Below, in pieces: positions 1-64,000 of a DNA stretch of 64,000 nucleotides. Position numbers and translations under genes: made by a program. This DNA is from Escherichia phage FEC19: sequence record MH816966; one strand, 5' to 3'. Numbering within the stretch: position 1 is the first letter of the stretch; every line of letters starts with the position of its first letter. The notes under the pieces were generated by a model, which did not search any database, was not told where the DNA came from, and worked only from the letters and a program-made list of their open reading frames with translations.

Positions 1-27
1 GCGAACGCGCCTGCAAGTGAAGAGTTT

Positions 28-369
28 TCATTTGACCTTCTCCAATTGGAATCTTGCTTCTGGAAAGCCTGCGACAAACATGTCACGGCCCTCGACATCA
101 CGCTTCACGAACCAACGCATTCCGCTGACTACCGTGAAGACAATTTGCCTTCCATCAATAATAAGTCCTTTTGCCTCATAAAGCAAATAAGTCTGACCGA
201 CTTTGAAGCTTAACATATCCTTGCTTGTGCTGGTGCACTTGAGCCGCCACTGGGTGAGATTTGATTCGCTTGCTTCGATGTCAACAACCTTACCGCGCAG
301 CGACGATGTGCGCTGAAGCTCTTGCATTTGCTCGTCGAACGTGAGTTCACGGCCTTCTTGCTCTTCCAT
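28..369 (-). CDS. hypothetical early protein (113 aa)
   Basis: Intact ORF in a co-directional tightly packed minus-strand array; no recognisable motif. Confidence 0.45.
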   Translation of the reverse strand: MEEQEGRELTFDEQMQELQRTSSLRGKVVDIEASESNLTQWRLKCTSTSKDMLSFKVGQTYLLYEAKGLIIDGRQIVFTVVSGMRWFVKRDVEGRDMFVAGFPEARFQLEKVK

Positions 370-869
370 TATTCCTCCACGACGCGATAAGCAATGATGT
401 CATAAACGCTTCCGTTGTGCTGCCACAGCCATCCTTCTGAATTGGATGAATAAGAAGACTTCTCTTCATTCCTCCACATCAACATGACCTTCTTACCAGG
501 CACCGGATTCTTGCCGCCAGCCCATTCAATCCAACCTTCATGAGATTCTTCGGGCTTCTTCAAGTGCTCATGCTTCTCACCGATGTGGGCGACAGGTTGA
601 CGGCTTCCGTAATAGAATGCCAACGCAACGTCGTAGGATGGATGGGTGTTGGATAAGCAAATGTCATCACACCAAAGCTCCATGGTGCGCGACTTAAGCG
701 TCATCATATTAGTATACCACTCGATGGTGTAGTGGTCGTTAAGGTTGCCGACAATATAGAAGTTGCGGCAAAAGTGCGCAGCGTCATCCGACTTCTCGCG
801 GCTATAGCTTCTGATTGCGCCTGCCTTTACAGCCATTTCCAATACTGCTTCGAGTTGTTCGATTTTCAT
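369..869 (-). CDS. hypothetical protein (166 aa)
   Basis: ORF abutting its neighbours (start overlaps next stop); His/Trp-rich, no confident family assignment. Confidence 0.45.
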   Translation of the reverse strand: MKIEQLEAVLEMAVKAGAIRSYSREKSDDAAHFCRNFYIVGNLNDHYTIEWYTNMMTLKSRTMELWCDDICLSNTHPSYDVALAFYYGSRQPVAHIGEKHEHLKKPEESHEGWIEWAGGKNPVPGKKVMLMWRNEEKSSYSSNSEGWLWQHNGSVYDIIAYRVVEE

Positions 870-1111
870 TTCTTTACTCCTAGTTCAATTTGATAGCCGA
901 TTGACAATTCATTTTCGCCGATGTTGAATGCATCAACGGGCTGCGACATCACCGCCTTTAAATATACCTTCTTGCGCCGCTTTGCCTTGTACAAACAACG
1001 GTCGCCGCTGCGGTTGTAGATGTTAAGCCAGGTGCGCTTACTGATCTTATAAGGCACATGCGGCTTGATGAATAATAAACGGGCCTTAAGATTGGATGTC
1101 ATAGTATTCAC
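866..1111 (-). CDS. hypothetical basic protein (81 aa)
   Basis: ORF overlapping the upstream gene by 4 nt (coupled); Lys/Arg-rich. Confidence 0.4.
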   Translation of the reverse strand: MNTMTSNLKARLLFIKPHVPYKISKRTWLNIYNRSGDRCLYKAKRRKKVYLKAVMSQPVDAFNIGENELSIGYQIELGVKK

Positions 1112-1410
1112 TTCCCTCCAAACGTTGCAACACGGATGTCGCGACGCGAAAAAGTCAGAACAGTGTCAAGGCTGCCAGCACAGGTTATGAATATATCGTC
1201 TGCAACAAGGTCATACCCGCCGACGCAAAGAATAAATGTGTCATCGCTATTCTTTAATAGCATGATTGCTGCAACACCGTCCTTTTTATTCTTAAAGAAG
1301 AATACTGGCTCACCGCCTTCTTGCGTCTCCTTGAACTCTTTAATTGCACCACAGTTCACGGCTTCTTGCAAAGCATTCAAAACCTTTTTCTTCATTGCTT
1401 CGTTACTCAT
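1108..1410 (-). CDS. hypothetical protein (100 aa)
   Basis: Start refined to ATG at 1410 (MSNEAMKKK) preceded by AAGGAG; the longer ORF-track start lacks an RBS. Confidence 0.5.
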   Translation of the reverse strand: MSNEAMKKKVLNALQEAVNCGAIKEFKETQEGGEPVFFFKNKKDGVAAIMLLKNSDDTFILCVGGYDLVADDIFITCAGSLDTVLTFSRRDIRVATFGGK

Positions 1411-1438
1411 AATCAATTCTCCTTTGCTTGATGAACTA

Positions 1439-1466
1439 AGTATAATACAGGCAAATAAAAAGGCAA
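1439..1466 (-). promoter_or_regulatory. sigma70-like promoter for 1108-1410
   Basis: Minus sense TTGCCT-16-TATACT; -35 lies inside the upstream terminator stem. Confidence 0.4.
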
Positions 1467-1485
1467 GCATTTAGCTCACCTTTTT
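1457..1485 (-). terminator. rho-independent terminator (copy 1 of a duplicated cassette)
   Basis: Minus-strand RNA 5'-AAAAA GGUGAGC UAAAU GCUUGCC UUUUU-3'; the stem uses G-U wobbles that pair only in the minus-sense transcript. Confidence 0.5.
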
Positions 1486-1488
1486 GAA

Positions 1489-1749
1489 TTAAATATTCTT
1501 CGCCTCTTCGTGGAGGCCGACCGACCTTAGTTTTCGTCGCAAGTAAGCTTTCTTTTCACTCTCCCGCCCGGCTGGAGTCACGCGCCAGCGTAATGTGTTC
1601 TCCAGATTCTTGCGTCGGTTGTGCTTGTCGAGTAGCTCTACCAGTGCCTTTGCGTCGTCGAGTGTTAATGCCACGGGCCGCGACCCATTAACGGCTTGTC
1701 GAAGCTTCCGCGCGGCAACGGCTAACTTAGTCATCGGACCTTTGTTCAC
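1489..1749 (-). CDS. hypothetical basic protein (86 aa)
   Basis: ORF followed directly by a hairpin terminator; Arg/Lys-rich, possible nucleic-acid binder. Confidence 0.45.
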   Translation of the reverse strand: MNKGPMTKLAVAARKLRQAVNGSRPVALTLDDAKALVELLDKHNRRKNLENTLRWRVTPAGRESEKKAYLRRKLRSVGLHEEAKNI

Positions 1750-2129
1750 GGCAACTCCTTATTCATAGGCGTGATAGACAACACCTTTACGTCTGTGATG
1801 TCACGGTTGTATTCGCGCTTGATTTGTAGAATCTGGGATTGGATGCGCGCGATAAAGTGCCACGTGATGCCTTCCTTAACGTTAATCCAGGCCGCAAGCT
1901 GAATTGAATCGATTTCACTTCTCAATGTCATCGGTCTGTAAGCAGCACTTTGTGCACCATAAGCAGGCTGTGTATCGTAAGCTGAATACTTGAATGACAC
2001 CAAGAACATTCTTTCTTCAAGCTGACTCTCGCTATTAGGATTCTTATCACAATTAGCCATGTGTCGCAAGAACTCTTCATGCGGAAGATGCATCACATCG
2101 TGACAATACGGACAACGTTTCATTCTCAT
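1746..2129 (-). CDS. small zinc-finger-like protein, paralog A
   Basis: N-terminus KRCPYCHDVMHLPHEEFLRHMANCDKNPNS parallels the neighbouring gene (C-P-x-C ... H ... C ... NPxNS); start chosen to avoid overlap with the upstream stop. Confidence 0.5.
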   Translation of the reverse strand: MRMKRCPYCHDVMHLPHEEFLRHMANCDKNPNSESQLEERMFLVSFKYSAYDTQPAYGAQSAAYRPMTLRSEIDSIQLAAWINVKEGITWHFIARIQSQILQIKREYNRDITDVKVLSITPMNKELP

Positions 2130-2130
2130 T

Positions 2131-2415
2131 TTACACCTCATGCAAGAAAGACAAAGATTTGATGCAGACTATTTCTTTTCCAGATACTTCCTTTATTGTA
2201 TCCAGCAGGCTTTCATACGCCTTTTTGGTGATCACCATTTCTTTCGTGGTAACGATTCCTGTTGCGCCTGAGCCGTCGTCTGCTTCCGCGTGATAATGAT
2301 AATAGTAACGCGTCGAATTTTCAGGATTAGCTTCACAAACGTTAACGTGATGTAAATATTCTTCAACAGGAAGTCGCATAGTTAACAAGCAATGTGGGCA
2401 GCGTTGCACCTTCAT
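2131..2415 (-). CDS. small zinc-finger-like protein, paralog B
   Basis: N-terminus QRCPHCLLTMRLPVEEYLHHVNVCEANPENS; tandem paralog of 1746-2129. Confidence 0.5.
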   Translation of the reverse strand: MKVQRCPHCLLTMRLPVEEYLHHVNVCEANPENSTRYYYHYHAEADDGSGATGIVTTKEMVITKKAYESLLDTIKEVSGKEIVCIKSLSFLHEV

Positions 2416-2648
2416 TTTGCATACTCCATAGCATATTGCTGCAGCTTAAACGCAGCCTTTTGTAATTGTTTGTGACGTTCAAATAACGTCTCACGCTTTT
2501 CAGCAGGGCAATCGGCGCGAAGCATTGTTATGGCAACGCTTGACATAGCATTCAATAAAAACTGAAAACGAGACACCATTCTCAGCTCATTACGCTTGTT
2601 GAAAGACAGCTTACCCAGCGCGGCATTCATAATTGCACCTCGACACAC
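2412..2648 (-). CDS. hypothetical protein (78 aa)
   Basis: ORF overlapping the upstream gene by 4 nt. Confidence 0.4.
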   Translation of the reverse strand: MCRGAIMNAALGKLSFNKRNELRMVSRFQFLLNAMSSVAITMLRADCPAEKRETLFERHKQLQKAAFKLQQYAMEYAK

Positions 2649-2944
2649 GATTCACTAGCCTTGAATCCCCAGCCTTCCAGACCGACTTCGCCGCAGTAAC
2701 GCGCCATTGCACGCTCATCCAAGAACCAACCGTGATATTGCTCTATGTACTTTGGTTTTTCTGAATAACAGTGAATGACTCCGTCGTCATCAATGGCCAC
2801 GTAACGCGTGCCAGGCGCGACTGGTACAACTACGTTTGGGTGGACGATTGGCCAAGGCTTGATGTGTACGGCTGTGTCTAACTTAACGTTTGGCACCCTT
2901 GAAAGGTCTTTGTAAGCGCCCTCGTCCATTCCTAAGTAAATCAT
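2627..2944 (-). CDS. hypothetical protein (105 aa)
   Basis: ATG at 2944 preceded by GAGGTGA; downstream of the duplicated promoter/terminator cassette. Confidence 0.5.
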   Translation of the reverse strand: MIYLGMDEGAYKDLSRVPNVKLDTAVHIKPWPIVHPNVVVPVAPGTRYVAIDDDGVIHCYSEKPKYIEQYHGWFLDERAMARYCGEVGLEGWGFKASESCVEVQL

Positions 2945-2976
2945 AATTCACCTCGCTTGTTAGTCTTGATGAAAAG

Positions 2977-3005
2977 AGTATAAGTATTGATAAAAGAAAA
3001 GGCAA
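2977..3005 (-). promoter_or_regulatory. sigma70-like promoter for 2627-2944
   Basis: Minus sense TTGCCT-17-TATACT; duplicate of the 1439-1466 arrangement. Confidence 0.4.
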
Positions 3006-3024
3006 GCATTTAGCTCACCTTTTT
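2996..3024 (-). terminator. rho-independent terminator (copy 2 of the duplicated cassette)
   Basis: Same 30-bp sequence AAAAGGCAAGCATTTAGCTCACCTTTTTGA as at 1459-1488. Confidence 0.5.
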
Positions 3025-3029
3025 GATAT

Positions 3030-3362
3030 TCATTTTACATAGTGGAGTAGGTCAATCTCTATCTCGTGCCTTGTCCTTGTTATCTTTGTATCACCCGTCC
3101 TGTGGGAGACTTGATGGAAGAAAGAGTCTTTGTGAGCGCATCGTTCAAACATCACGCTGGCAAATCTGCAGCCGCATATTGCATCAAGCTTTGCTCCGTT
3201 AGACAAAAGGTTGAATGTCAATACAGTGTTATCCATCCTTGCATTTTGCTTGATGCAGGACTTTAAGAAGGCGTAAGAATCGGCAAATGATTTGTGCCTT
3301 TTACAAATATCTTTAACCTTTTCACGCTCATGCGCGGCGAGTATCTGATCACGTGTCATCAC
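3030..3362 (-). CDS. hypothetical protein (110 aa)
   Basis: ORF in operon context, followed by the terminator at about 2996-3024. Confidence 0.45.
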   Translation of the reverse strand: MMTRDQILAAHEREKVKDICKRHKSFADSYAFLKSCIKQNARMDNTVLTFNLLSNGAKLDAICGCRFASVMFERCAHKDSFFHQVSHRTGDTKITRTRHEIEIDLLHYVK

Positions 3363-3598
3363 TGCACCTCTGTTATTCCGGTAATGCGAACGATTACGGT
3401 GTCATCTAAATTGAACTGCTGCCGCGCGACGCGCTTGATGTCGTCCTTAAGGTCCGCAATCAACTCCCTTGTTAACACTGTACGCTCTGAGACGTCATAT
3501 TGAACGTCAAAGGTATACTCGCCATAAAATACCGCGCCATTGGGAAGTTGTACGACATAGAATGCCATGTACATTGCATTGATATAATCTTCCATCAT
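3359..3598 (-). CDS. hypothetical protein (79 aa)
   Basis: Start refined to the internal ATG forming an ATGA overlap with the upstream stop. Confidence 0.4.
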   Translation of the reverse strand: MMEDYINAMYMAFYVVQLPNGAVFYGEYTFDVQYDVSERTVLTRELIADLKDDIKRVARQQFNLDDTVIVRITGITEVQ

Positions 3599-3942
3599 AC
3601 ATTCTCCACGGGTCGACGAATGAGTTTGCGTAATCCTTCGGGCCAGACCTTCTTGATGACGGCCTTTGCTGGGCTGGATGAAAGCTTCTTCAGCTTCAAT
3701 AGGACACATCCTTCATCATCGTTCGGTTGCACCTGGATAACGACTCGCGCTTGTCGGTCGATGACCATGACATCCCCAATGCGAATGTCTTTTACCAACA
3801 CGCCCATCTCCTTCGTGCCGGATACGCCATTGATGTGATCAAAACCTTTTCGCAGCGGTTTCATTATTTCTTCTCCTGCCATTTCTCTGACACGCTTCTT
3901 AATCTCTGCGCCAAACAACACTTCGTCTTTAACATGAGCCAT
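3595..3942 (-). CDS. hypothetical protein (115 aa)
   Basis: Start refined to MAHVKD to remove overlap with the upstream gene. Confidence 0.4.
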   Translation of the reverse strand: MAHVKDEVLFGAEIKKRVREMAGEEIMKPLRKGFDHINGVSGTKEMGVLVKDIRIGDVMVIDRQARVVIQVQPNDDEGCVLLKLKKLSSSPAKAVIKKVWPEGLRKLIRRPVENV

Positions 3943-5505: not shown

Positions 5506-6153
5506 TTATCCTGTGGCCTGCATATTGCGTACATACTTCTGCTCTAATGAATAGATGAAGTCGGCGACCGTCAATCCTTTTGTGTGCCACTCATACATTG
5601 TGTAGCCTGTATTCAGGAAATAGCCGCGCACCTTGTCCATTGCTTCAGCTTCCTCCATGGAAGCCATCAGCGCGGCGACGTTATCATAAGAAGGCACAAA
5701 TCCCTTCTTGCGTAGCGCATTGCGCAAATCTTTAGTTCTGAATCCAATCTTGCACAGGTCATCACGGCCCGTTGAAGATGCAACCTTCGGCAGTGCAAGG
5801 AACTCTTTGAGGAACATCGAGATGTTCAGGTCGCCTGCATCATCAAGCTTCTGGAGTCGGTTGCGACCGCGACCCTTGAATTCACTTGCACGAGGGTGAG
5901 CGCCAAAACAATGCGCCCCTTCCAATTTAGGGTCGATGATCATCAAATCTTTGCCTACGCGCAATTCAACGTAGTAAAGGTATGTCTCATCGACAAGCTT
6001 CGTGCGTTTACAGGTGATGGAGTCCTTATCGTACCCAAAACCACGCAACACGGTTGAAATCATCCGGTTCATTTCTTCTCCATGAACGTCACTCTCTTTG
6101 TTCAGTTCACCGAGATGTTGAAAGAATTTAGCGATGTTGATTGCTTTATTCAT
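5506..6153 (-). CDS. hypothetical protein (215 aa)
   Basis: ORF immediately downstream of and coupled to the primase-helicase gene. Confidence 0.5.
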   Translation of the reverse strand: MNKAINIAKFFQHLGELNKESDVHGEEMNRMISTVLRGFGYDKDSITCKRTKLVDETYLYYVELRVGKDLMIIDPKLEGAHCFGAHPRASEFKGRGRNRLQKLDDAGDLNISMFLKEFLALPKVASSTGRDDLCKIGFRTKDLRNALRKKGFVPSYDNVAALMASMEEAEAMDKVRGYFLNTGYTMYEWHTKGLTVADFIYSLEQKYVRNMQATG

Positions 6154-49744: not shown

Positions 49745-50030
49745 ATAGCCGCGCCTTAATTAGTGTGATACGGATGATACGGATAAAATGAGGCGTATTT
49801 TTATCCGTATCGGTGTATAAGCCGCGCTATCACTGGTGTGCTACGGATGATACGGATGATACGGATACTTTTCATATATAAGAGTTTATAAAAAAAATAA
49901 AATTAAATTAGATATATAATTTTAAATTAATTTATTTGAATTCCTATAAAGTATCGCGGCAACGCGTATCATCCGTATCATCCGTAAGATTCTTTTGAAA
50001 ACAACTACTTACTTGATACGGATGATACGT
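49745..50030. repeat. iteron-like 9-bp repeat array flanking an AT-rich core
   Basis: GATACGGAT units, direct at 49767-49784, 49843-49868 and 50015-50029 and inverted at 49803-49811 and 49967-49987, around an 80-bp core of over 80% A+T (49869-49950). Confidence 0.7.
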
Positions 50031-50073
50031 CATTATACGCGTAAAATCCTGCGGCAATCCATTGCCAGGCGAT

Positions 50074-52002: not shown

Positions 52003-54378
52003 TCAACCTTGCTTCGGTGAATTAGTAGGATTATTGAGTGCTCCGTATGCTTGAGAGCAATCACCCTTCAACCACTCTTTGAATGAGTTCACATCTAATT
52101 CGTGGATTGAGTCGAATCCGTTCCAACCGTTACCAAATGATGCCTGATAAGCTTCTTTTGCTTCTTCTGCTGAATCGAATCCAAGCATGCACTTGTGTTC
52201 ATCGAACTCGCCAGAGTAGTTATCGTTTTGGTTCACGATAAAGACCTTCGGCGACTTCAGATTTGTGCCAACAAAGCAGTCGACTTCATCGCCGTCCGCG
52301 CCCTTGGTGCCTTTGATGAATCCGTAGTGGTGCGGCATCTTGACTGCCCATTCACCGTCAAGGCTGTTTCCTCTACGGATGCTGTTGCGAGGATTCTCAA
52401 TCCCAAGAATCAGCCCATGCAACTTCATCTTAGGTAATGATGCTGCGTCCATCTTTCCAACGTTGTGTCGTAAGTTGACGACATTACCTTTGACGCTTGG
52501 AAGGGTAGACGGTTGCACCGACCGTGAATCTTTTTGAGGGTCAAAATCCACATCCTGACCTTCTTTCAGGTAGTAATCCGCAATACCCTCCAGACCTTCT
52601 TTCAACTGCGTTAGGACATCAACCTGATGGCTTGATTCATCGTCGGTATCGTCCATGTTGATTTCGACAGGCGCTCTGTCAGGGTTTTCCGCCAACTCAC
52701 CGCGCGCGGCACCTTCTGGCATAATGCCTGTTTCACTGTAGAACTGGCCGCCCATCTTAACGACATCAGCTTTCGCCTGTTCAATATCGGCCTTACCTTG
52801 TAGGACTTCACCAGCAGACTTGCCAAGCAATGCCATATTCTCTGGAGACATCCCTGGTGTTTCTTCTGCCGCATCTTCCGGCAGACGGTTGTAGCCGCTG
52901 TTTTTGTCGTCTTTGATGCGGTCGCGCTCTTCATCAGGAGAAATGACGCCAGCATCAATAAGAGTTTTGCCAGTGTTGGCTCGCTTATCATTGATTTCTG
53001 CAAGTTGAGTAGCAGTAAGTGAGCCAACTGGTTCCCATGCAACCTTAACATCGACATCCACCCCTTCTGATTTGAGAAGGATTTTGTAATGGCGGTCGAG
53101 AATTTTTGTCAGGTCATGCTGCTGGCACGTTTCCAACTCTTCGTGATAGCTGACCATCTCGAATTCACCAGTGGCGTTAAAGCCTTTTGGCGAAGTCCCA
53201 AGCAGTTTGGTCGACGGAACTTTTGCGATTGCGGCCACCAGCTGGTACTGGTTCATGATGATGCTGTCGAAGTCTGACAAGTTGATATCAAACTGGTCCA
53301 TCTCTTCTTTTTGGCCAAGCACTTTGACTGCATAGTTGTCGCGGTACTTGATCCACATCATCAGACGTTCTGCAAAAGACCGCTCATTGGCAATCGCCTT
53401 GTCAACGTCGGTCCGCAGCGTGGTTGTACGCTTGGACATCGCCAGCAATGGCGCTTCGTTAGCGGTACGTTCAGCGGCATAGATGCGTTCATAAATCTGC
53501 TGAGTCAGAGGAATGCCGCCGTAAATATAAGTTGGCTTGAGAATATCAGCTGGCTCATCATTGCGCAAGATGATGAGGTGACTTCGATGATAACGTTGTC
53601 CACTGATCACCCAGTATTCTGGATCATAGAAGTGCTGTGATGCAGGGTCGGCGGTGTTTTCAGACGTCAAAAATGGCATCATCCAATAAGGGTCGACCTG
53701 AATGATTCCCTTATAAGACCCCTTTGTCACACCATCAATGTTAAAAGGCTTGCTGTAATATTCTGGGTCATCGCTACGCACATCAAATATGATGACGCGG
53801 ATACCAAAAATATTTTTGAATCGTTCGGCTTCAACTAAGTGCTCTTTGATATTAAATTCTTTATCAATTTGCTTTAGGCGTTCGCTTGCCTGTACTGACA
53901 ATTCTGACTCAGAACTGGATTTGACTTCCCATCCTTTACGGACCGCATCGCGGCCTACCATGGAACAAGCCTTGTTCACCAGCCAGTGCTGCGCGATGAT
54001 GGCGCAAGCTTGATATCCGATAAATGATTGCGATAAGTACCAGTTTTGCAACTGAATAGGTACTGTGTATGGGTTGACTTGCCCTTCTGAACTGATGTTC
54101 TTTAAGGCATTATCCATAACTTTTTTGGATACTGTTGCGGAATCGACTGAGCGACCTTTTATGATTGCAACACCATCGCCATTAATATCAGGCTCATATA
54201 AAGGGAAGTCATCAACCGTTTTAAAGGTCGGTCGATTGCTTTCAGTCTTTTCCCAGCGTTGACCGCTGCCGCGCCTTTCAAGGCGTTCAAACGGTGCCAA
54301 TGGGTCGCCTGGCGGCATCTCCGCTGGTTCGGCTTCTGGTTGCGTCTTCTCCCAGAGTTTTATGCCAAGAATTTTCAT
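52003..54378 (-). CDS. portal protein with C-terminal inorganic pyrophosphatase-like domain
   Basis: Portal-like central region; last about 160 aa carry HHYGFIKGTKGADGDEVDCFVG and GFDSAEEAKEAYQASF, resembling family I pyrophosphatase; start at ATG 54378 (MKILGIK) with GGTGG RBS. Confidence 0.65.
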   Translation of the reverse strand: MKILGIKLWEKTQPEAEPAEMPPGDPLAPFERLERRGSGQRWEKTESNRPTFKTVDDFPLYEPDINGDGVAIIKGRSVDSATVSKKVMDNALKNISSEGQVNPYTVPIQLQNWYLSQSFIGYQACAIIAQHWLVNKACSMVGRDAVRKGWEVKSSSESELSVQASERLKQIDKEFNIKEHLVEAERFKNIFGIRVIIFDVRSDDPEYYSKPFNIDGVTKGSYKGIIQVDPYWMMPFLTSENTADPASQHFYDPEYWVISGQRYHRSHLIILRNDEPADILKPTYIYGGIPLTQQIYERIYAAERTANEAPLLAMSKRTTTLRTDVDKAIANERSFAERLMMWIKYRDNYAVKVLGQKEEMDQFDINLSDFDSIIMNQYQLVAAIAKVPSTKLLGTSPKGFNATGEFEMVSYHEELETCQQHDLTKILDRHYKILLKSEGVDVDVKVAWEPVGSLTATQLAEINDKRANTGKTLIDAGVISPDEERDRIKDDKNSGYNRLPEDAAEETPGMSPENMALLGKSAGEVLQGKADIEQAKADVVKMGGQFYSETGIMPEGAARGELAENPDRAPVEINMDDTDDESSHQVDVLTQLKEGLEGIADYYLKEGQDVDFDPQKDSRSVQPSTLPSVKGNVVNLRHNVGKMDAASLPKMKLHGLILGIENPRNSIRRGNSLDGEWAVKMPHHYGFIKGTKGADGDEVDCFVGTNLKSPKVFIVNQNDNYSGEFDEHKCMLGFDSAEEAKEAYQASFGNGWNGFDSIHELDVNSFKEWLKGDCSQAYGALNNPTNSPKQG

Positions 54379-54540
54379 TGTTAACGCCACCTGACAGTGA
54401 AAGGGAATCAATCTATATTATAAATATTCATGTGTTTGTAAGCAAATGATATGTATGGTGATCATAAATAGTTCATAAAATATTTTGCTTTTGTATCATT
54501 TTGAGTTATATTTTAGTTAACCAAACGAAAGGAGATTGAA

Positions 54541-54957
54541 ATGAGCACAACAATTGTATTTGTCGTCCTACACAACGGCGAAGTCGTTAACGTATGCGAA
54601 TATGAAGAACTGGCAAAGGCCACTGCTGCGCGATACGAAGGTGCTACTATTGACCCGTGGATTTTAGATGCGCGCAACGTCTTGCAGGCGACTTTGGATG
54701 AGTGGCTGTTGGGTCGCAAAGTCTATCCAGTAGACGACATCGACTCAATTCAAGGTGAAACAGTATATTTTGAAGATGAATGCGTTCGCGGCATCGGCAA
54801 ATTTATGGGATTGTGCCCATCTTCATCCAAAAATAAATTTTATCGTATTCAAGTTGAAGAAAACGATATGTTTGACAAAGTTACGCGCTCGATTGTTCCT
54901 GACGGCGGCACTCCAATCTTTATGGCAGAATCAGACATCAAGGGGATCATCAAATGA
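54541..54957 (+). CDS. hypothetical protein (138 aa)
   Basis: Strong AAGGAG RBS; opposite strand to the flanking portal and terminase genes. Confidence 0.5.
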   Translation: MSTTIVFVVLHNGEVVNVCEYEELAKATAARYEGATIDPWILDARNVLQATLDEWLLGRKVYPVDDIDSIQGETVYFEDECVRGIGKFMGLCPSSSKNKFYRIQVEENDMFDKVTRSIVPDGGTPIFMAESDIKGIIK

Positions 54958-55193
54958 GAACGTTAACCGAACTCGATGTTTTGAAAGACGTTGCAGCCGC
55001 GCTGGGCGTAGAATTATCCGAAAAGGCGACACTAGGTGCTTTGCGTCGGGATTTACTCGAAGCTGTTGACCGCAACGATTTTGACCGTAAGTGTATGCAA
55101 AAGAAGATTCGGCAGGCGGTGAGAGCGGGTAAGCGATTCCGTGCCAGGTCGTTTGCCGCAAGAAAGCTTGACCTTCAGCACGGAATGCTTTGA
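54954..55193 (+). CDS. hypothetical basic protein (79 aa)
   Basis: ATGA-coupled to the upstream gene; Arg/Lys-rich C-terminus. Confidence 0.45.
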   Translation: MRTLTELDVLKDVAAALGVELSEKATLGALRRDLLEAVDRNDFDRKCMQKKIRQAVRAGKRFRARSFAARKLDLQHGML

Positions 55194-55196
55194 TTG

Positions 55197-56657
55197 TTAA
55201 AGGTTAGAGAAGAAGCCGGATGCTGCAACGATTGGTTTCATCAATGCCATGATTGCTGCGTCCGCTTTGTTAGGTGATTTGACTCCACGCTTTGCCATAT
55301 CCTTTTTGGATTCAACTTTGAACTTGCCAAGAACAGACGTATCTTTGCGCGGCGCTGACATCTCAAAAAGAAACGTCTCAATCTCTTCAGTAGTCCAAGC
55401 TGGAATCCCAAGTTCCGGTATACCATCGGTGTCGATTGAAATCAATTCATCAGTCGGATATACGGCTTGCCCAGTTGCATATTCGTATGTCTTTCTGAAT
55501 CTCTCTGCAATTTCAGTCCACTTTTGCGCTTTTATGTTTGCGAAATGGTCTTTATTGAGTATTTCAACGTGTGGTAGCTCAAGAAAAACGTCATCAGGAT
55601 CATCAACAGACCCTTGCGCGTTGAACGCATTAAATTCGATTCTTGGAAATGATGGATTTTCATGTATTGCATACTCGTTTAGTTCATCAAACTTTGAACC
55701 AGCAAAAGCGCCGACACCGATGGCGTCATAAGTTATGGAAGCGCCGAATGTAAGCGCATCTTTCCAAACTCCGCTTGCCGATTTCAACAATTCATCTTCC
55801 AGGCCTTCCCACGTCTTGATGCCGCGCAATACGTTTCCTGTGACGAATGCAGTGGCGTTAAGGTCGTCGCCATCGTCCGCTACGTCAAAGCCTATACGGT
55901 TAGACCCTGACAAACTCCAGCCCAGCGTTGGGTGCTTGTGGAGATTAAGCGCGGCCTTAACGAATGCGCGGTTGATTACAGATTTGTCGCCGCCAGTCTT
56001 CGGCACGCCGCCATAAACGTGCTCTGCCTTTTTCGGGTCACGCTCGTACATGCCTGCAATAACGTCCAACATTGTTTGCGACAAGAATGGATTATCTTGC
56101 CAGTTTATCTTTTTAACAATTGCATTCTTCGGCGGTCGCATAACAAAGTTTTGATATACGAAATCGGCCTCTTCATCAGGGTTAAAGATGATCCATATTT
56201 CGGACCCTTCTTTACGTATTGTCGGCTCAATAATGTCCCACTGTTCTTCAGTAAGCGCGTGCGCTTCTTCCAGCCAAAGAACATCAACGCCTTCTGTTGA
56301 TTTGATTTCATCAACGTTACGTGCGATACCATAAAATAGAAATTCAGATTTAGTTCTTTTGTGTTCGATAGAGTTCTTTAATAAATTGAACTCATCTTTA
56401 AAATCAGAAATCTCTATTTTGTCTTTTAATAGTGTATATACAGATTCAGAAATCTTGTTCTGGAATTGTCGAACGCAAAGGAATTTTAATTTGAAGTTTG
56501 CCGCCAAATAAATAGCAAAACCAGCGGCATCGTGCGATTTGGAAGATGCACGACCGCCGTATATTACTTTGTATCGCGCTTTTGTCTTCCAGACTTCTTT
56601 TAAAGCAGGATTCAACTGGTACATGAATTTCCAATTATGTGTTAATATTTTATTCAT
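55197..56657 (-). CDS. terminase large subunit
   Basis: 486 aa; Walker A YGGRASSKSH near the N-terminus and a C-terminal nuclease-like half. Confidence 0.85.
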   Translation of the reverse strand: MNKILTHNWKFMYQLNPALKEVWKTKARYKVIYGGRASSKSHDAAGFAIYLAANFKLKFLCVRQFQNKISESVYTLLKDKIEISDFKDEFNLLKNSIEHKRTKSEFLFYGIARNVDEIKSTEGVDVLWLEEAHALTEEQWDIIEPTIRKEGSEIWIIFNPDEEADFVYQNFVMRPPKNAIVKKINWQDNPFLSQTMLDVIAGMYERDPKKAEHVYGGVPKTGGDKSVINRAFVKAALNLHKHPTLGWSLSGSNRIGFDVADDGDDLNATAFVTGNVLRGIKTWEGLEDELLKSASGVWKDALTFGASITYDAIGVGAFAGSKFDELNEYAIHENPSFPRIEFNAFNAQGSVDDPDDVFLELPHVEILNKDHFANIKAQKWTEIAERFRKTYEYATGQAVYPTDELISIDTDGIPELGIPAWTTEEIETFLFEMSAPRKDTSVLGKFKVESKKDMAKRGVKSPNKADAAIMALMKPIVAASGFFSNL

Positions 56658-56834
56658 ATTATAGTTTGCTTGTACAAGCTATATCAAGTAAAATTATGAT
56701 TCCAGCTTAGTAGTGGATAAAGGGTGATCTTTCGGCCAGATTTTTTCTGGCCATTTTTTTGATTAAAATTCACAAAAAGTTTGCCTTTCTGAAACTCTGC
56801 GTTATAATCATATTAACTCAAAACCGGAGGTAAT

Positions 56835-57050
56835 ATGAAACTCATCGACCGTGCCATCAAAGCCATAGATAACCATTCCACAGCTATTGCATTTGTAATG
56901 GGATTCTGTTTTACTGCTGCGTTTGGCGACGTTCACACATTCAAGTCTGTCATCTTGTGCTGGTCTATCTGGTCCCTCATTTCTCTGGTTTTGATTCTTC
57001 CGATGACGTGGCTTATCCTTACTTGTCTGGAATCTCAAGGTGAAGACTGA
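56835..57050 (+). CDS. small two-TM membrane protein (holin-like)
   Basis: GGAGG RBS; two hydrophobic helices and a charged C-terminus (LESQGED). Confidence 0.4.
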   Translation: MKLIDRAIKAIDNHSTAIAFVMGFCFTAAFGDVHTFKSVILCWSIWSLISLVLILPMTWLILTCLESQGED

Positions 57051-58070: not shown

Positions 58071-60407
58071 ATGCCAAGGCTAATATTCAAAAACAACTTT
58101 GAGGTCGCGCTTGCTCAGCCAACGACGACTTCAGACACCACAATTACAATCCGCTCAGGGTCGGGCTTTCCGACCTTGGCCGCAAACGAGCGTGTAGTGG
58201 CGACAATCGTCGACGCTGCAACAGGCCTCCAATTCGAAATCATCACAGTAACAGCCGTCGTTGGTGATGTCCTGACCGTTCAGCGTGCACAGGAAGGGAC
58301 TGCAGCGCGTGCATGGGCGGCTGGCGACATGCTTTCCATTCGAACAACTGCTGCGACTTTGACGGGTACTGTCCGAAACTTTGGCGTAATTCCTAATGGA
58401 GTAAACCTTAACGCGCTGAACGGAAGCTGGTTCGGGCAGTATTACCAACTGGCTGATTCTGGGGCATCAATATCACTCAACTATCCTGTCGCACAAGCGG
58501 GAATACTTGAAGTTTTACAAACGGGAGTTTCAACGAACGGATGTGTTCAGCGATACACACCTTACAACACTAACACTGTATACCAGAGGCTGTATAATGC
58601 CATCACATCAACTTGGTCTGATTGGGTTCAAGTTTATAATACGCAAAGCGTTATACCAGTCGCAAATGGCGGTACAGGACAAACGACCATCCAAGGGATG
58701 AAGTCTGCTTTTGGATTCGGAACGGTCGCTGATCAAAACATTGTTCCCACTTCAATGGGCGGTACGGGATCAGCAGACAATGCGCAGGCATGGCTTAACA
58801 TTCGTCCACAAGGGTCGACTCCGCTGGCTGGCGACCCTGTGAATGATTATGATGCCGCAACTAAGCGTTGGGTTGAGAACTTAGTAAATACTGGCACCGT
58901 TGGCCCAAGCATGAACGGTGTTATGAACTATGGCGTCGGTGACTTCCACTTACGCGACAGTCGTGCTTATATTCAACCATATGAAGTCGTTGCTGATGGG
59001 CAGTTGTTAAACCGCGCTGACTGGCCTGAACTTTGGGCGTATGCGCAAATGCTTTCTCCTATTGCTGATGCCGACTGGCTTGCTGACCCAGCGAAACGCG
59101 GCAAGTATTCACTTGGTAATGGCACAACGACATTCCGTGTACCAGACAGAAATGGTGTCCAGACCGGTTCCATACAAGCCTTATTTGGCAGGGGTGACGG
59201 CGGTAATTCATCGGCCAACGGAGTCGTTTCTGAGTCAGGTGCACCAAATATAACTTACTCCGCGCCGCACACAATGGTCACGTTGGCTTCTGCGCCAAGT
59301 CAGGTGGCGACTAATGGCGCTTTTCAGTCGATCACTTCTGGGGACTCTCCAGCAGCAGCAGGTTCTGGTTCAAGATTCATACAAACAAACTTTGACGCTT
59401 CTCGATCAAGCCCTGTATACGGAAGATCAGCAGCGGAAATCGTTCCGCGTAACTTTGTTGGCGTTTGGGTGATTCGTGCATCGGGTGGCTTTGTTGCCGC
59501 GAATACGACTTGGAGCGTTATTAATGGTGACGCAGTAAAACCTGCAACCGGAACGCTTGTCAGAGGCGGCAGTGTAAAATCTGAATATAAAATTGGCACC
59601 AACATTGCGTATCAAGCATTCTTGCAAGCATACGGTAAGATTGATGGATTAACGTCTGAACAAGGTGCTGTGATATCTAATGGGGTGCAAGAATGGAAGT
59701 TTGCGCAAGATGGCACATTTTATTTCCCTAACTCCATAAATCAAATTGGCACGGAAAGGACAGACGGGGCGCTGAATGTTAATGCATATCTCAGACCAAA
59801 AGACCTTGTTGCGCAACCGTTAAACTCAGTAGGCGTTGCAGCGTATGAAAGCAACGGCATGAGGATGATAAACTTCAACCAGTCAACACCTGGGTATGTA
59901 TCATATTTTTCAGGGGATTGGTATGCTGGCAGCTATACATTCGGAGGCGTTCGAGGCACTGGAACTGATTTGATGCACGCGCAAATATCCATAAACAATG
60001 GGCAAGGCGCTGCAGCAGATTTCAAATTCATGCCTGATGGTACTGCTACTGCAGGGAACTGGGTCAGCACGTCTGATGAGAGGGTCAAGACAAATATTCA
60101 AAGGATCTCCGACCCGTTAGGAAAGATGAGATTGATCAAGGGTGTGACTTGGGAGCGCCTTGATAAGTCAGAGAAACCGAATGGCATCGGATTTATAGCT
60201 CAAGATGTAGAAGGTGTATTTCCTGACGCAGTAAAAACTTTGAAATATTCAAACACGGAACTCAAGGATGGGACTGTTGTCGAAGATATCAAGTCAGTTG
60301 ACACTTACGGCGTTGCAGCGGCACTGCACCACGAGGCTATTCTCGCATTGATGGATCAAATAGATGAACTCAAGGCAGAGATAGCCGCGCTGAAAGCAGC
60401 GAAATAA
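58071..60407 (+). CDS. tail fibre/tailspike with C-terminal S74 intramolecular chaperone domain
   Basis: C-terminal SDERVKTNIQRISDPLGKMRLIKGVTWERL and coiled-coil tail, typical of self-cleaving chaperone domains of fibres and endosialidases. Confidence 0.8.
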   Translation: MPRLIFKNNFEVALAQPTTTSDTTITIRSGSGFPTLAANERVVATIVDAATGLQFEIITVTAVVGDVLTVQRAQEGTAARAWAAGDMLSIRTTAATLTGTVRNFGVIPNGVNLNALNGSWFGQYYQLADSGASISLNYPVAQAGILEVLQTGVSTNGCVQRYTPYNTNTVYQRLYNAITSTWSDWVQVYNTQSVIPVANGGTGQTTIQGMKSAFGFGTVADQNIVPTSMGGTGSADNAQAWLNIRPQGSTPLAGDPVNDYDAATKRWVENLVNTGTVGPSMNGVMNYGVGDFHLRDSRAYIQPYEVVADGQLLNRADWPELWAYAQMLSPIADADWLADPAKRGKYSLGNGTTTFRVPDRNGVQTGSIQALFGRGDGGNSSANGVVSESGAPNITYSAPHTMVTLASAPSQVATNGAFQSITSGDSPAAAGSGSRFIQTNFDASRSSPVYGRSAAEIVPRNFVGVWVIRASGGFVAANTTWSVINGDAVKPATGTLVRGGSVKSEYKIGTNIAYQAFLQAYGKIDGLTSEQGAVISNGVQEWKFAQDGTFYFPNSINQIGTERTDGALNVNAYLRPKDLVAQPLNSVGVAAYESNGMRMINFNQSTPGYVSYFSGDWYAGSYTFGGVRGTGTDLMHAQISINNGQGAAADFKFMPDGTATAGNWVSTSDERVKTNIQRISDPLGKMRLIKGVTWERLDKSEKPNGIGFIAQDVEGVFPDAVKTLKYSNTELKDGTVVEDIKSVDTYGVAAALHHEAILALMDQIDELKAEIAALKAAK

Positions 60408-63927: not shown

Positions 63928-64000
63928 GTACTCATATCGGGACGGGATGAGTTAACGAATAGGTCGTTAACGCCTCTCCCCAACTAGGAGTTTATTATGG

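What the first reader, a model, noticed from the sequence alone, without database searches (positions are those of the whole stretch)
54541..55193. Opposite-strand gene pair wedged between portal and large terminase; no small terminase subunit seen
Two plus-strand genes with a strong AAGGAG RBS and an AT-rich upstream region interrupt the minus-strand head module, converging head-on with the terminase gene only 3 bp away. No recognisable small terminase gene lies upstream of the large subunit; that space is a 177-bp intergenic region and the start of the plus-strand block. These may be moron-type accessory genes or unconventional packaging factors.
Basis: seen in the sequence. Interest (0 to 1): 0.5.

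Follow-up and report, generated by a model that had tools for sequence, protein, structure and literature searches.

The report
Conserved accessory gene pair; small terminase elsewhere
The two opposite-strand genes between portal and large terminase are real, but they are an old, conserved pair of unknown function found in all phages of this group, and the "missing" small terminase lies just outside the window, so the layout is ordinary for this lineage.

Summary
The window is a Wifcevirus, an E. coli myovirus 93-97% identical to TH32, WFC and Mansfield. ORF1 (54541-54957, 138 aa) and ORF2 (54954-55193, 79 aa, ATGA overlap) lie on the + strand between portal and TerL. They have an AAGGAG RBS, a 28% GC upstream region and 3 bp to the TerL stop.

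The interpretation mostly fails. A small terminase exists. Mansfield gp002 (annotated TerS) matches the solved E217 TerS (PDB 7UXE) at E=9e-33. It lies inside the ~3.7 kb direct terminal repeat, about 1.4 kb beyond the window's right end.

The order TerS, opposite-strand block, TerL, opposite-strand block, portal is shared by Pbunavirus, Myosmarvirus, Kylevirus and a Salmonella phage. Wifcevirus has the smallest TerL-portal block, two genes against 5-14 elsewhere.

ORF1 belongs to the E217 gp18 family (phrog_5124), which is the portal-proximal gene in four lineages. ORF2 has relatives only in Kylevirus-like phages.

Both genes are under purifying selection and have normal GC. Neither was detected in virion proteomics, and neither resembles TerS in sequence or predicted fold.

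They are most likely non-structural accessory or regulatory proteins. Their function is still unknown.

The parts
52003..54378 (-). Portal gene (Phage_portal_3 with a C-terminal InPase-like domain). Its start is taken as ATG 54378, as annotated in relatives.
   Evidence: Pfam PF06381 at 3.7e-88 and PF18823 at 8e-46. 52% identical to the E217 portal gp19. Annotated in Mansfield and Bas98.
54379..54540 (.). AT-rich divergent intergenic region between portal and ORF1 (27.8% GC). It holds sigma-70-like sites on the + strand (CTGACA-17-TATATT at 54391-54419, TTCATA-16-TATCAT at 54472-54499) and the AAGGAG RBS at 54529-54534.
   Evidence: The same promoter-like sites occur in Mansfield. Stronger sites lie at the equivalent position in Pantoea phage PA1 and in contig L013. 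The number of consensus matches is not above chance, so these are candidates only.
54541..54957 (+). ORF1: 138 aa, 15.5 kDa, pI 4.6. Member of the E217 gp18 / 14-1 gp17 family (phrog_5124). The predicted structure is an N-terminal alpha/beta domain followed by a C-terminal SH3-like beta-barrel.
54954..55193 (+). ORF2: 79 aa, 9.0 kDa, pI 10.3. Its start is translationally coupled to ORF1 through the ATGA overlap. Predicted as a short helix, a loop and a 50-residue helix with a strongly basic C-terminal half (12 K/R against 1 D/E in residues 45-79).
   Evidence: AF2 pLDDT 86. No significant PDB fold match. Homologues only in Wifcevirus and Kylevirus-like phages. dN/dS 0-0.18.
55197..56624 (-). 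Large terminase gene (Terminase_3). It converges on ORF2 with 3 bp between the stop codons. The longer reading frame extends to ATG 56657.
   Evidence: Pfam at 3.2e-37 and phrog_3717 at 5e-75. 63% identical to E217 TerL. The start is as annotated in Mansfield, WFC and Bas98.
56658..56687 (-). Promoter-like site TTGATA-18-TATAAT (11 of 12 matches) directly upstream of TerL.
   Evidence: Conserved in Mansfield. Analogous sites occur in PA1 and L013.
56734..56760 (+). Intrinsic-terminator-like hairpin GGCCAGA-TTTTT-TCTGGCC followed by a T-run. It is the first such site on the + strand downstream of ORF2, and it lies beyond the whole antisense of TerL.
   Evidence: the only hairpin plus T-run in 55100-56860. 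Conserved in Mansfield and annotated in WFC. An analogous site lies at L013 8828-8855.

Best explanation
ORF1 and ORF2 form a small two-gene operon that is conserved and vertically inherited. It encodes non-structural proteins and is the minimal version of an opposite-strand block that separates TerL from the portal gene throughout the Pbunavirus/Kylevirus/Wifcevirus lineage. It is not the small terminase and does not replace one.

Shown:
- The lineage's TerS is a homologue of E217 TerS (PDB 7UXE). It is encoded several kb upstream of TerL on the TerL strand, inside the ~3.7 kb direct terminal repeat. That stretch happens to be cut off from this window.
- Both ORFs are real genes under purifying selection.
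- They occupy a conserved position across genera.
- They were not detected in virion proteomics, and E217 gp18 is not among the 19 gene products built in the E217 cryo-EM virion model.
- Neither resembles TerS in sequence or predicted fold.

Inferred:
- The pair is transcribed by host RNA polymerase from sigma-70-like sites in the AT-rich divergent region shared with the portal gene, and ORF2 translation is coupled to ORF1 through the ATGA overlap.
- The proteins act inside the infected cell. ORF1 is acidic, with an alpha/beta domain and an SH3-like barrel. ORF2 is a basic helical protein able to bind nucleic acid or a protein partner. A regulatory or host-interaction role fits the equivalent Pbunavirus block, which holds the RNAP-alpha-binding protein 14-1 gp12.
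- There is no terminator at the ORF2/TerL junction, and the first + strand terminator lies past the TerL start. The operon's transcript therefore probably runs antisense across TerL.
For: TerS elsewhere:
- E217 gp78 is PDB 7UXE.
- tblastn with E217 TerS finds a homologue in Wifcevirus genomes at ~40% identity, E~1e-30.
- Mansfield gp002 (361-834) is annotated as terminase small subunit and lies inside the PhageTerm-predicted DTR 1-3673. It matches 7UXE at 9e-33.
- WFC and WFH carry ~3.7 kb terminal repeats.
- Window position 64000 corresponds to Mansfield 2252, and the window holds no TerS hit.

Conserved architecture (number of opposite-strand genes between TerL and portal):
- E217: 13.
- 14-1: 14.
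- Serratia phage Hera: 7.
- Salmonella phage PCSE1: 14.
- Pantoea phage PA1 and contig L013: 5.
- Wifcevirus: 2.
- TerS lies upstream of TerL on the same strand in E217, PCSE1 and Hera.

The two families:
- ORF1 family hits are the portal-proximal gene in E217, 14-1, PA1, PCSE1 and L013.
- ORF2 homologues occur in PA1 and L013 inside the same block.

Real genes, not foreign, not virion, not TerS:
- dN/dS is well below 1.
- GC is 0.44 and 0.51 against 0.46 for the window.
- Their products are not among the MS-detected proteins of vB_Eco4M-7 (genes 34, 35); the ECML-117 list has no entry between gp30 and the portal gp34, where I assume its orthologues are numbered (gene numbers not checked).
- E217 gp18 is not mentioned among the E217 virion components.
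- hhalign probability against a TerS profile is 0.1-0.2%.
- The predicted folds differ from TerS.

Transcription signals.

14-1 gp12 lies in the equivalent block and is described as an RNAP-alpha binder (PMC10914365).
Against: - No function has been demonstrated for either protein in any phage.
- No transcript data exist for a Wifcevirus, so timing, promoter use and read-through are all inferred.
- The number of sigma-70-like matches in the region is not above what shuffled sequence gives, and TerL and portal carry similar promoter-like sites. Promoter type therefore does not assign a temporal class.
- The analogy with 14-1 gp12 rests on position in the same block, not on homology.
- Non-detection by MS in crude lysates is weak negative evidence for small proteins.
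- TerS in this particular genome is inferred from relatives, because that stretch is outside the window.
- ORF1's invariable adjacency to the portal gene in four lineages would also fit an assembly-related role.
Confidence: 0.62

Rival explanations
1. Packaging or assembly accessory factors. ORF2, a basic helical protein, would bind phage DNA at the packaging site or bridge TerS and TerL. ORF1 would assist portal or procapsid function. Both would be expressed late together with the flanking head genes.
For: - The pair lies between TerL and portal.
- The ORF1 family is always the gene next to the portal in four lineages.
- ORF2 has a strongly basic C-terminal helix and a helix-loop-helix N-terminus that gives weak SAP/LEM-like Foldseek hits.
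- E217 TerS showed no appreciable DNA binding in vitro (PMC9611059), which leaves room for a specificity factor.
- Like the terminase subunits, the pair is absent from the virion MS list of vB_Eco4M-7.
Against: - ORF2 has no detectable homologue in Pbunavirus, Myosmarvirus or PCSE1, although these share the same TerS/TerL/portal set. An essential packaging partner would be expected to co-occur.
- In Kylevirus-like phages the two genes are separated by a protease gene and sit among unrelated accessory genes such as DUF2786.
- They are on the opposite strand from every head and packaging gene.
- The SAP/LEM hits have E>6.
Confidence: 0.15
2. Recently acquired moron-type cargo: an autonomous transcription unit inserted into the head module that gives a host-range or defence-related benefit.
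For: - The pair is on the opposite strand, with its own RBS and an AT-rich upstream region holding promoter-like sites.
- The equivalent block differs in gene content between genera and holds methyltransferase, protease and endolysin-type genes.
Against: - The pair is present in all 27 Wifcevirus records at 93-100% protein identity.
- ORF1 has positional orthologues in Pbunavirus, Kylevirus and PCSE1.
- GC content is normal.
- There is no terminator at the 3' end of the pair.
- Purifying selection is strong.
Confidence: 0.08
3. The main product is regulatory RNA. Convergent transcription from the ORF1 promoter across TerL yields an antisense RNA, or causes transcriptional interference, that delays terminase expression. 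The two small proteins would be secondary.
For: - Only 3 bp separate the converging stop codons, and no hairpin plus T-run occurs on the + strand until 56734-56752, just past the TerL start.
- This terminator is conserved in Mansfield and annotated in WFC.
- A different but equivalently placed terminator occurs in contig L013.
Against: - Both ORFs are clearly protein-coding and under purifying selection.
- E217 has a strong terminator right at the block/TerL junction, so read-through is not a lineage-wide design.
- Rho-dependent termination cannot be excluded.
- No transcript data exist.
Confidence: 0.15

Closest known systems
Pseudomonas phage E217 gp18 / 14-1 gp17 (PP141_gp17) / Pantoea phage Kyle gp26 family (phrog_5124), function unknown
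   Same: Homologous to ORF1: phrog_5124 hits, blastp at 5.9e-5, profile hits at 1e-41. Similar size (133-147 aa). Same position and orientation, as the first gene of the opposite-strand block, divergent from the portal gene.
   Different: Only ~22-30% identity. In Pbunavirus the gene is followed by 12-13 further genes before TerL, against only ORF2 here. The PCSE1/Citrobacter-type members have an extra ~45-residue N-terminal extension.
E217 small terminase gp78 (PDB 7UXE; phrog_4783) and its Wifcevirus orthologue Mansfield gp002
   Same: This is the small terminase that the finding could not see. It is encoded apart from TerL, on the same strand, and separated from it by a block of opposite-strand genes. 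That is the arrangement reported for E217, described there as ~58 kb away in linear numbering and ~7.6 kb the other way round.
   Different: It is not related to ORF1 or ORF2 (hhalign probability <1%). In Wifcevirus it lies inside the direct terminal repeat, outside this window.
The TerL-portal opposite-strand block of Pbunavirus (14-1 gp04-gp17, including the RNAP-alpha-binding gp12 and a methyltransferase)
   Same: Same genomic slot, same orientation, convergent with TerL and divergent from the portal gene. It holds non-structural genes whose content varies.
   Different: It has 13-14 genes against 2. Only the portal-proximal gene is shared. E217 has an intrinsic terminator at the TerL junction, whereas Wifcevirus has none there.
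Kylevirus-like block (Pantoea phage PA1; metagenomic contig L013): ORF1 homologue, Trypsin_2 protease, ORF2 homologue, 106-aa protein, DUF2786 protein
   Same: It contains homologues of both ORF1 and ORF2, in the same order and slot.
   Different: Three extra genes are present, and ORF1 and ORF2 are not adjacent or translationally coupled there.

Membership tests
Phage small terminase (TerS), E217 type (PDB 7UXE, phrog_4783) | Sequence or profile homology to a known TerS | tested here: not met
   hhalign of the ORF2 and ORF1 alignments against a TerS alignment gave probabilities of 0.1% and 0.2%. There were no TerS hits in Pfam, PHROGs, NCBIfam or PDB sequence searches.
Phage small terminase (TerS), E217 type (PDB 7UXE, phrog_4783) | TerS-like fold: N-terminal HTH plus a helical oligomerisation core, with or without a beta-barrel, in a protomer of 15-21 kDa | tested here: not met
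Phage small terminase (TerS), E217 type (PDB 7UXE, phrog_4783) | No other TerS in the genome (needed for the pair to fill that role) | tested here: not met
   At least 25 Wifcevirus records encode an E217-TerS homologue. Mansfield gp002 matches 7UXE at 9e-33. By synteny it lies ~1.4 kb beyond the window's end.
phrog_5124 (E217 gp18 family), tested for ORF1 | Significant match to the family profile and to its members over the full length | tested here: met
   ORF1 matches phrog_5124 at 5.7e-5 over residues 4-136. E217 gp18 matches the same PHROG at 1e-88. blastp gives 5.9e-5. A profile built from ORF1 relatives hits E217, 14-1, PA1 and PCSE1 at 1e-41 to 1e-44.
Moron (autonomous, recently inserted accessory transcription unit) | Patchy presence among close relatives | tested here: not met
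   Present in 27 of 27 Wifcevirus records. ORF1 has orthologues in three other lineages.
Moron (autonomous, recently inserted accessory transcription unit) | Nucleotide composition different from the flanking genes | tested here: not met
   GC is 0.444 (ORF1) and 0.508 (ORF2), against 0.462 for the window, 0.476 for portal and 0.432 for TerL.
Moron (autonomous, recently inserted accessory transcription unit) | Own promoter and own terminator flanking the unit | tested here: inconclusive
   Promoter-like sites lie upstream, but their number is not above chance. There is no terminator-like site between ORF2 and 56734.
SAP/LEM/HeH helix-extended-loop-helix DNA-binding motif, tested for the ORF2 N-terminus | Significant sequence or structure match to SAP/LEM/HeH/Rho_N domains | tested here: not met
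   Foldseek hits to LEM (6rpr) and SAP (6h9u, 9h0c) have E of 6-9 and probability of 0.16 or less. There are no Pfam hits at E<=0.1. The resemblance is a lead only.
SH3-like small beta-barrel (Sm/Tudor/KOW superfold), tested for the ORF1 C-terminal domain | Structural superposition on such barrels | tested here: met

The most novel reading that the evidence does not exclude
The ORF1-ORF2 operon could double as a timing device for packaging. No terminator separates it from TerL, and the first + strand terminator sits just beyond the TerL start. That terminator is conserved in Wifcevirus and has a counterpart in a Kylevirus-like contig. Transcription of the operon would then produce a ~1.5 kb antisense RNA over the whole terminase gene, or collide with TerL transcription, and so hold back terminase until the switch to late expression. 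In addition, or instead, the basic protein ORF2 could be a DNA-end specificity cofactor for an E217-type TerS, which by itself binds DNA poorly.
Probability: 0.1. Interest if true: 0.45.

Novelty: already known. Interest (0 to 1): 0.15.

Why it matters
The result removes an apparent anomaly, a tailed phage with a large terminase but no small one. The small terminase of this lineage is encoded apart from TerL, inside the terminal repeat. It is already annotated in one Wifcevirus record and solved structurally for E217.

The practical lesson is that gene-neighbourhood rules for finding TerS fail for the whole Pbunavirus/Kylevirus/Wifcevirus group, and that a truncated window can make a gene appear to be absent.

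What remains is modest. ORF1 and ORF2 are conserved proteins of unknown function. ORF1 is a lineage-wide neighbour of the portal gene. The convergent, terminator-less junction with TerL could be examined in the BASEL Wifcevirus isolates, which can now be grown on E. coli K-12 derivatives.

Tried and rejected
- **Direct annotation of the two proteins.** Pfam, PHROGs, NCBIfam and PDB sequence searches gave only unknown-function PHROGs or noise.
- **Deep homologue searches for ORF2.** The word-indexed search found only Wifcevirus sequences. The exhaustive phmmer scan of 1.84 billion representatives found three further small proteins, two of them traced to Kylevirus-like contexts. tblastn against phages found Wifcevirus only.
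- **Looking for TerS in the window by position.** I tested the genes next to the E217 gp76 homologue (window 5506-6153 and its neighbours). None matched the TerS PHROG. BLAST and profile searches of all window ORFs were also negative. TerS turned out to be outside the window.
- **Literature for temporal class.** The 14-1 ONT-cappable-seq paper has no held supplements and gives no temporal assignment for the block. The BAPR preprint and the phage Tn-seq preprint were uninformative. The E217 terminase paper itself is not held.
- **Toxin-antitoxin reading.** I considered an acidic-plus-basic coupled pair and rejected it. The two genes are not adjacent in Kylevirus-like phages, and there are no family hits.

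Full report
**What is there**

- ORF1 (54541-54957, 138 aa) is preceded by AAGGAG at 54529-54534.
- The 162-bp intergenic region upstream of it is 27.8% GC, against 46.2% for the window.
- ORF2 (54954-55193, 79 aa) overlaps ORF1 by ATGA.
- The ORF2 stop codon is 3 bp from the stop codon of the minus-strand large terminase.
- TerL is confirmed by Pfam Terminase_3 at 3e-37 and phrog_3717 at 5e-75. The portal is confirmed by Phage_portal_3 at 4e-88.
- The 177-bp gap upstream of TerL assumes a start at ATG 56657. Relatives annotate the start at ATG 56624. A TTGATA-18-TATAAT site abuts 56657, so the gap is more likely 210 bp.

**Identity of the window**

The window is a Wifcevirus, a virulent E. 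coli myovirus. It is 93-97% identical to TH32, vB_Eco4M-7, WFC, Mansfield and the BASEL isolates Bas98-101. Both ORFs are present in all 27 records of the genus and are annotated as hypothetical proteins. Pairwise comparison with four relatives gives dN/dS of 0.07-0.16 for ORF1 and 0-0.18 for ORF2, so both are real genes under purifying selection. Their GC content (0.44 and 0.51) is unremarkable.

**The 'missing' small terminase**

The BASEL paper states that Wifcevirus is distantly related to Pbunavirus. A review reports that the TerS gene of the Pbunavirus E217 lies ~58 kb from TerL.

I located E217 TerS as gp78 (59299-59868). It is identical to PDB 7UXE. tblastn with it finds a homologue at ~40% identity, E~1e-30, in Wifcevirus genomes. 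In phage Mansfield this gene is gp002 (361-834). It is already annotated as 'terminase small subunit' and lies inside the PhageTerm-predicted direct terminal repeat 1-3673. It matches 7UXE at 9e-33. Korf et al. report ~3.7 kb terminal repeats for WFC and WFH.

The right end of the window aligns to Mansfield position 2252 and its left end to about 65,950. About 4.4 kb of the genome is therefore missing from the window, and that stretch includes TerS. BLAST and profile searches confirm that no TerS is in the window.

**Synteny**

The opposite-strand wedge is a trait of the lineage. On the strand of the head genes the order is TerS, a block of opposite-strand genes, TerL, a second opposite-strand block, then portal.

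| Phage | Opposite-strand genes between TerL and portal |
|---|---|
| E217 (Pbunavirus) | 13 |
| 14-1 (Pbunavirus) | 14 |
| Serratia phage Hera (Myosmarvirus) | 7 |
| Salmonella phage PCSE1 | 14 |
| Pantoea phage PA1 and contig L013 (Kylevirus-like) | 5 |
| Wifcevirus | 2 |

The '58 kb' separation in E217 is ~7.6 kb the other way round the map.

ORF1 belongs to the family of E217 gp18 and 14-1 gp17 (phrog_5124). In E217, 14-1, PA1, PCSE1 and L013 the family member is the portal-proximal first gene of the block.

ORF2 has homologues only in Kylevirus-like phages. There the order is ORF1 homologue, Trypsin_2 protease, ORF2 homologue, a 106-aa protein, a DUF2786 protein, then TerL.

The pair is therefore old and vertically inherited. 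It is the minimal remnant of a variable block, not a recent insertion.

**What the proteins look like**

ORF2 (9.0 kDa, pI 10.3) is predicted with pLDDT 86 as a short helix (residues 6-17), a loop and a long helix (residues 27-77). Residues 45-79 carry 12 K/R against 1 D/E. Foldseek against PDB finds nothing significant. The SAP and LEM domain hits have E of 6-9.

Profile-profile comparison of either family with a TerS alignment gives a probability below 1%.

Neither protein is among the 33 proteins detected by mass spectrometry in vB_Eco4M-7 lysate, where they are genes 34 and 35. The ECML-117 list of 28 proteins has no entry between gp30 and the portal gp34, where I assume the orthologues are numbered; I did not check those gene numbers. 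E217 gp18 is not mentioned among the 19 gene products built in the E217 cryo-EM virion model.

**How it probably works**

The steps in this section are inferred, not shown.

Sigma-70-like sites lie upstream of ORF1 at 54391-54419 and 54472-54499, and they are conserved in Mansfield. Better matches, TTGACT-16-TATAGT and TTGACT-16-TATACT, occupy the equivalent position in L013 and PA1. The pair is probably transcribed by host RNA polymerase as a bicistronic message, with ORF2 translation coupled to ORF1.

The equivalent Pbunavirus block contains 14-1 gp12, which is described as binding the RNAP alpha subunit, and a methyltransferase. This suggests a non-structural, regulatory or host-directed role for genes in this slot. 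I commit to that reading at about 0.6.

One feature deserves a test. There is no terminator at the ORF2/TerL junction. The only hairpin plus T-run on the + strand between 55100 and 56860 is at 56734-56752, just past the TerL start. It is conserved in Mansfield, annotated in WFC, and mirrored by a different hairpin at the same relative place in L013. The operon's transcript may therefore run antisense over the whole of TerL. E217, in contrast, has a strong terminator right at the junction.

**Rivals**

- A packaging or assembly accessory role is not excluded. ORF1 is always next to the portal gene, ORF2 is basic, and E217 TerS binds DNA poorly in vitro. Against it, ORF2 is missing from lineages with the same packaging genes, and the pair sits among unrelated accessory genes in Kylevirus-like phages.
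- A recent moron is contradicted by the distribution across relatives, by composition and by the lack of an own terminator.
- An RNA-centred regulatory role is possible but untested.

**Verdict**

The arrangement is normal for this phage lineage and already present in public annotation. The small terminase is known and simply lies outside the window. The function of the two proteins is still unknown. Interest is low.

Noticed in passing
window 52003-54378 (-), protein residues ~660-782: The portal protein carries a C-terminal InPase-like domain (PF18823, E=8e-46). The same domain gives PHROG hits to large virion, DarB-like and polymorphic-toxin-like proteins. The fusion is shared with the E217 portal.
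   Followed up: no
window 49971-50040: A ~70-bp stretch here is 76% identical to Mansfield 63-133, at the extreme left end of the direct terminal repeat. It may be a repeated regulatory or end-associated element.
   Followed up: no
window 54541-56624: Mosaicism. ORF1 in the window is closest to Mansfield (dS 0.15). ORF2 and TerL are closest to Bas98 and WFC (dS 0.02-0.16), and TerL against Mansfield gives dS 0.53. This implies a recombination breakpoint near the ORF1/ORF2 boundary.
   Followed up: partly
window 56625-56834: Mansfield (gp020) and vB_Eco4M-7 (gene 32) have a 76-aa gene upstream of TerL. In vB_Eco4M-7 its 7.8 kDa product was detected by mass spectrometry with a high score. The gene is absent from this window and from WFC, which accounts for a ~260-bp indel between relatives.
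   Followed up: partly
window 56624-56687: The longest TerL reading frame starts at ATG 56657, but the promoter-like site TTGATA-18-TATAAT ends at 56658. Other genera align only from residue 11-12. The real start is probably ATG 56624.
   Followed up: partly
window 58071-60407 (+): A 778-aa tail fibre gene (Peptidase_S74 chaperone-type C-terminus in relatives) lies in the opposite-strand block between TerS and TerL. This is far from the main tail module on the other strand.
   Followed up: no
beyond the window's right end (Mansfield 361-834): The small terminase gene lies inside the ~3.7 kb direct terminal repeat. Packaged genomes would therefore carry two copies of it.
   Followed up: partly
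locus L013 5412-6011 and L005 7850-8407: Kylevirus-like phages encode a Trypsin_2-type serine protease between the ORF1 and ORF2 homologues. The PA1 copy has a lipoprotein-like signal sequence. The gene is absent from Wifcevirus.
   Followed up: no
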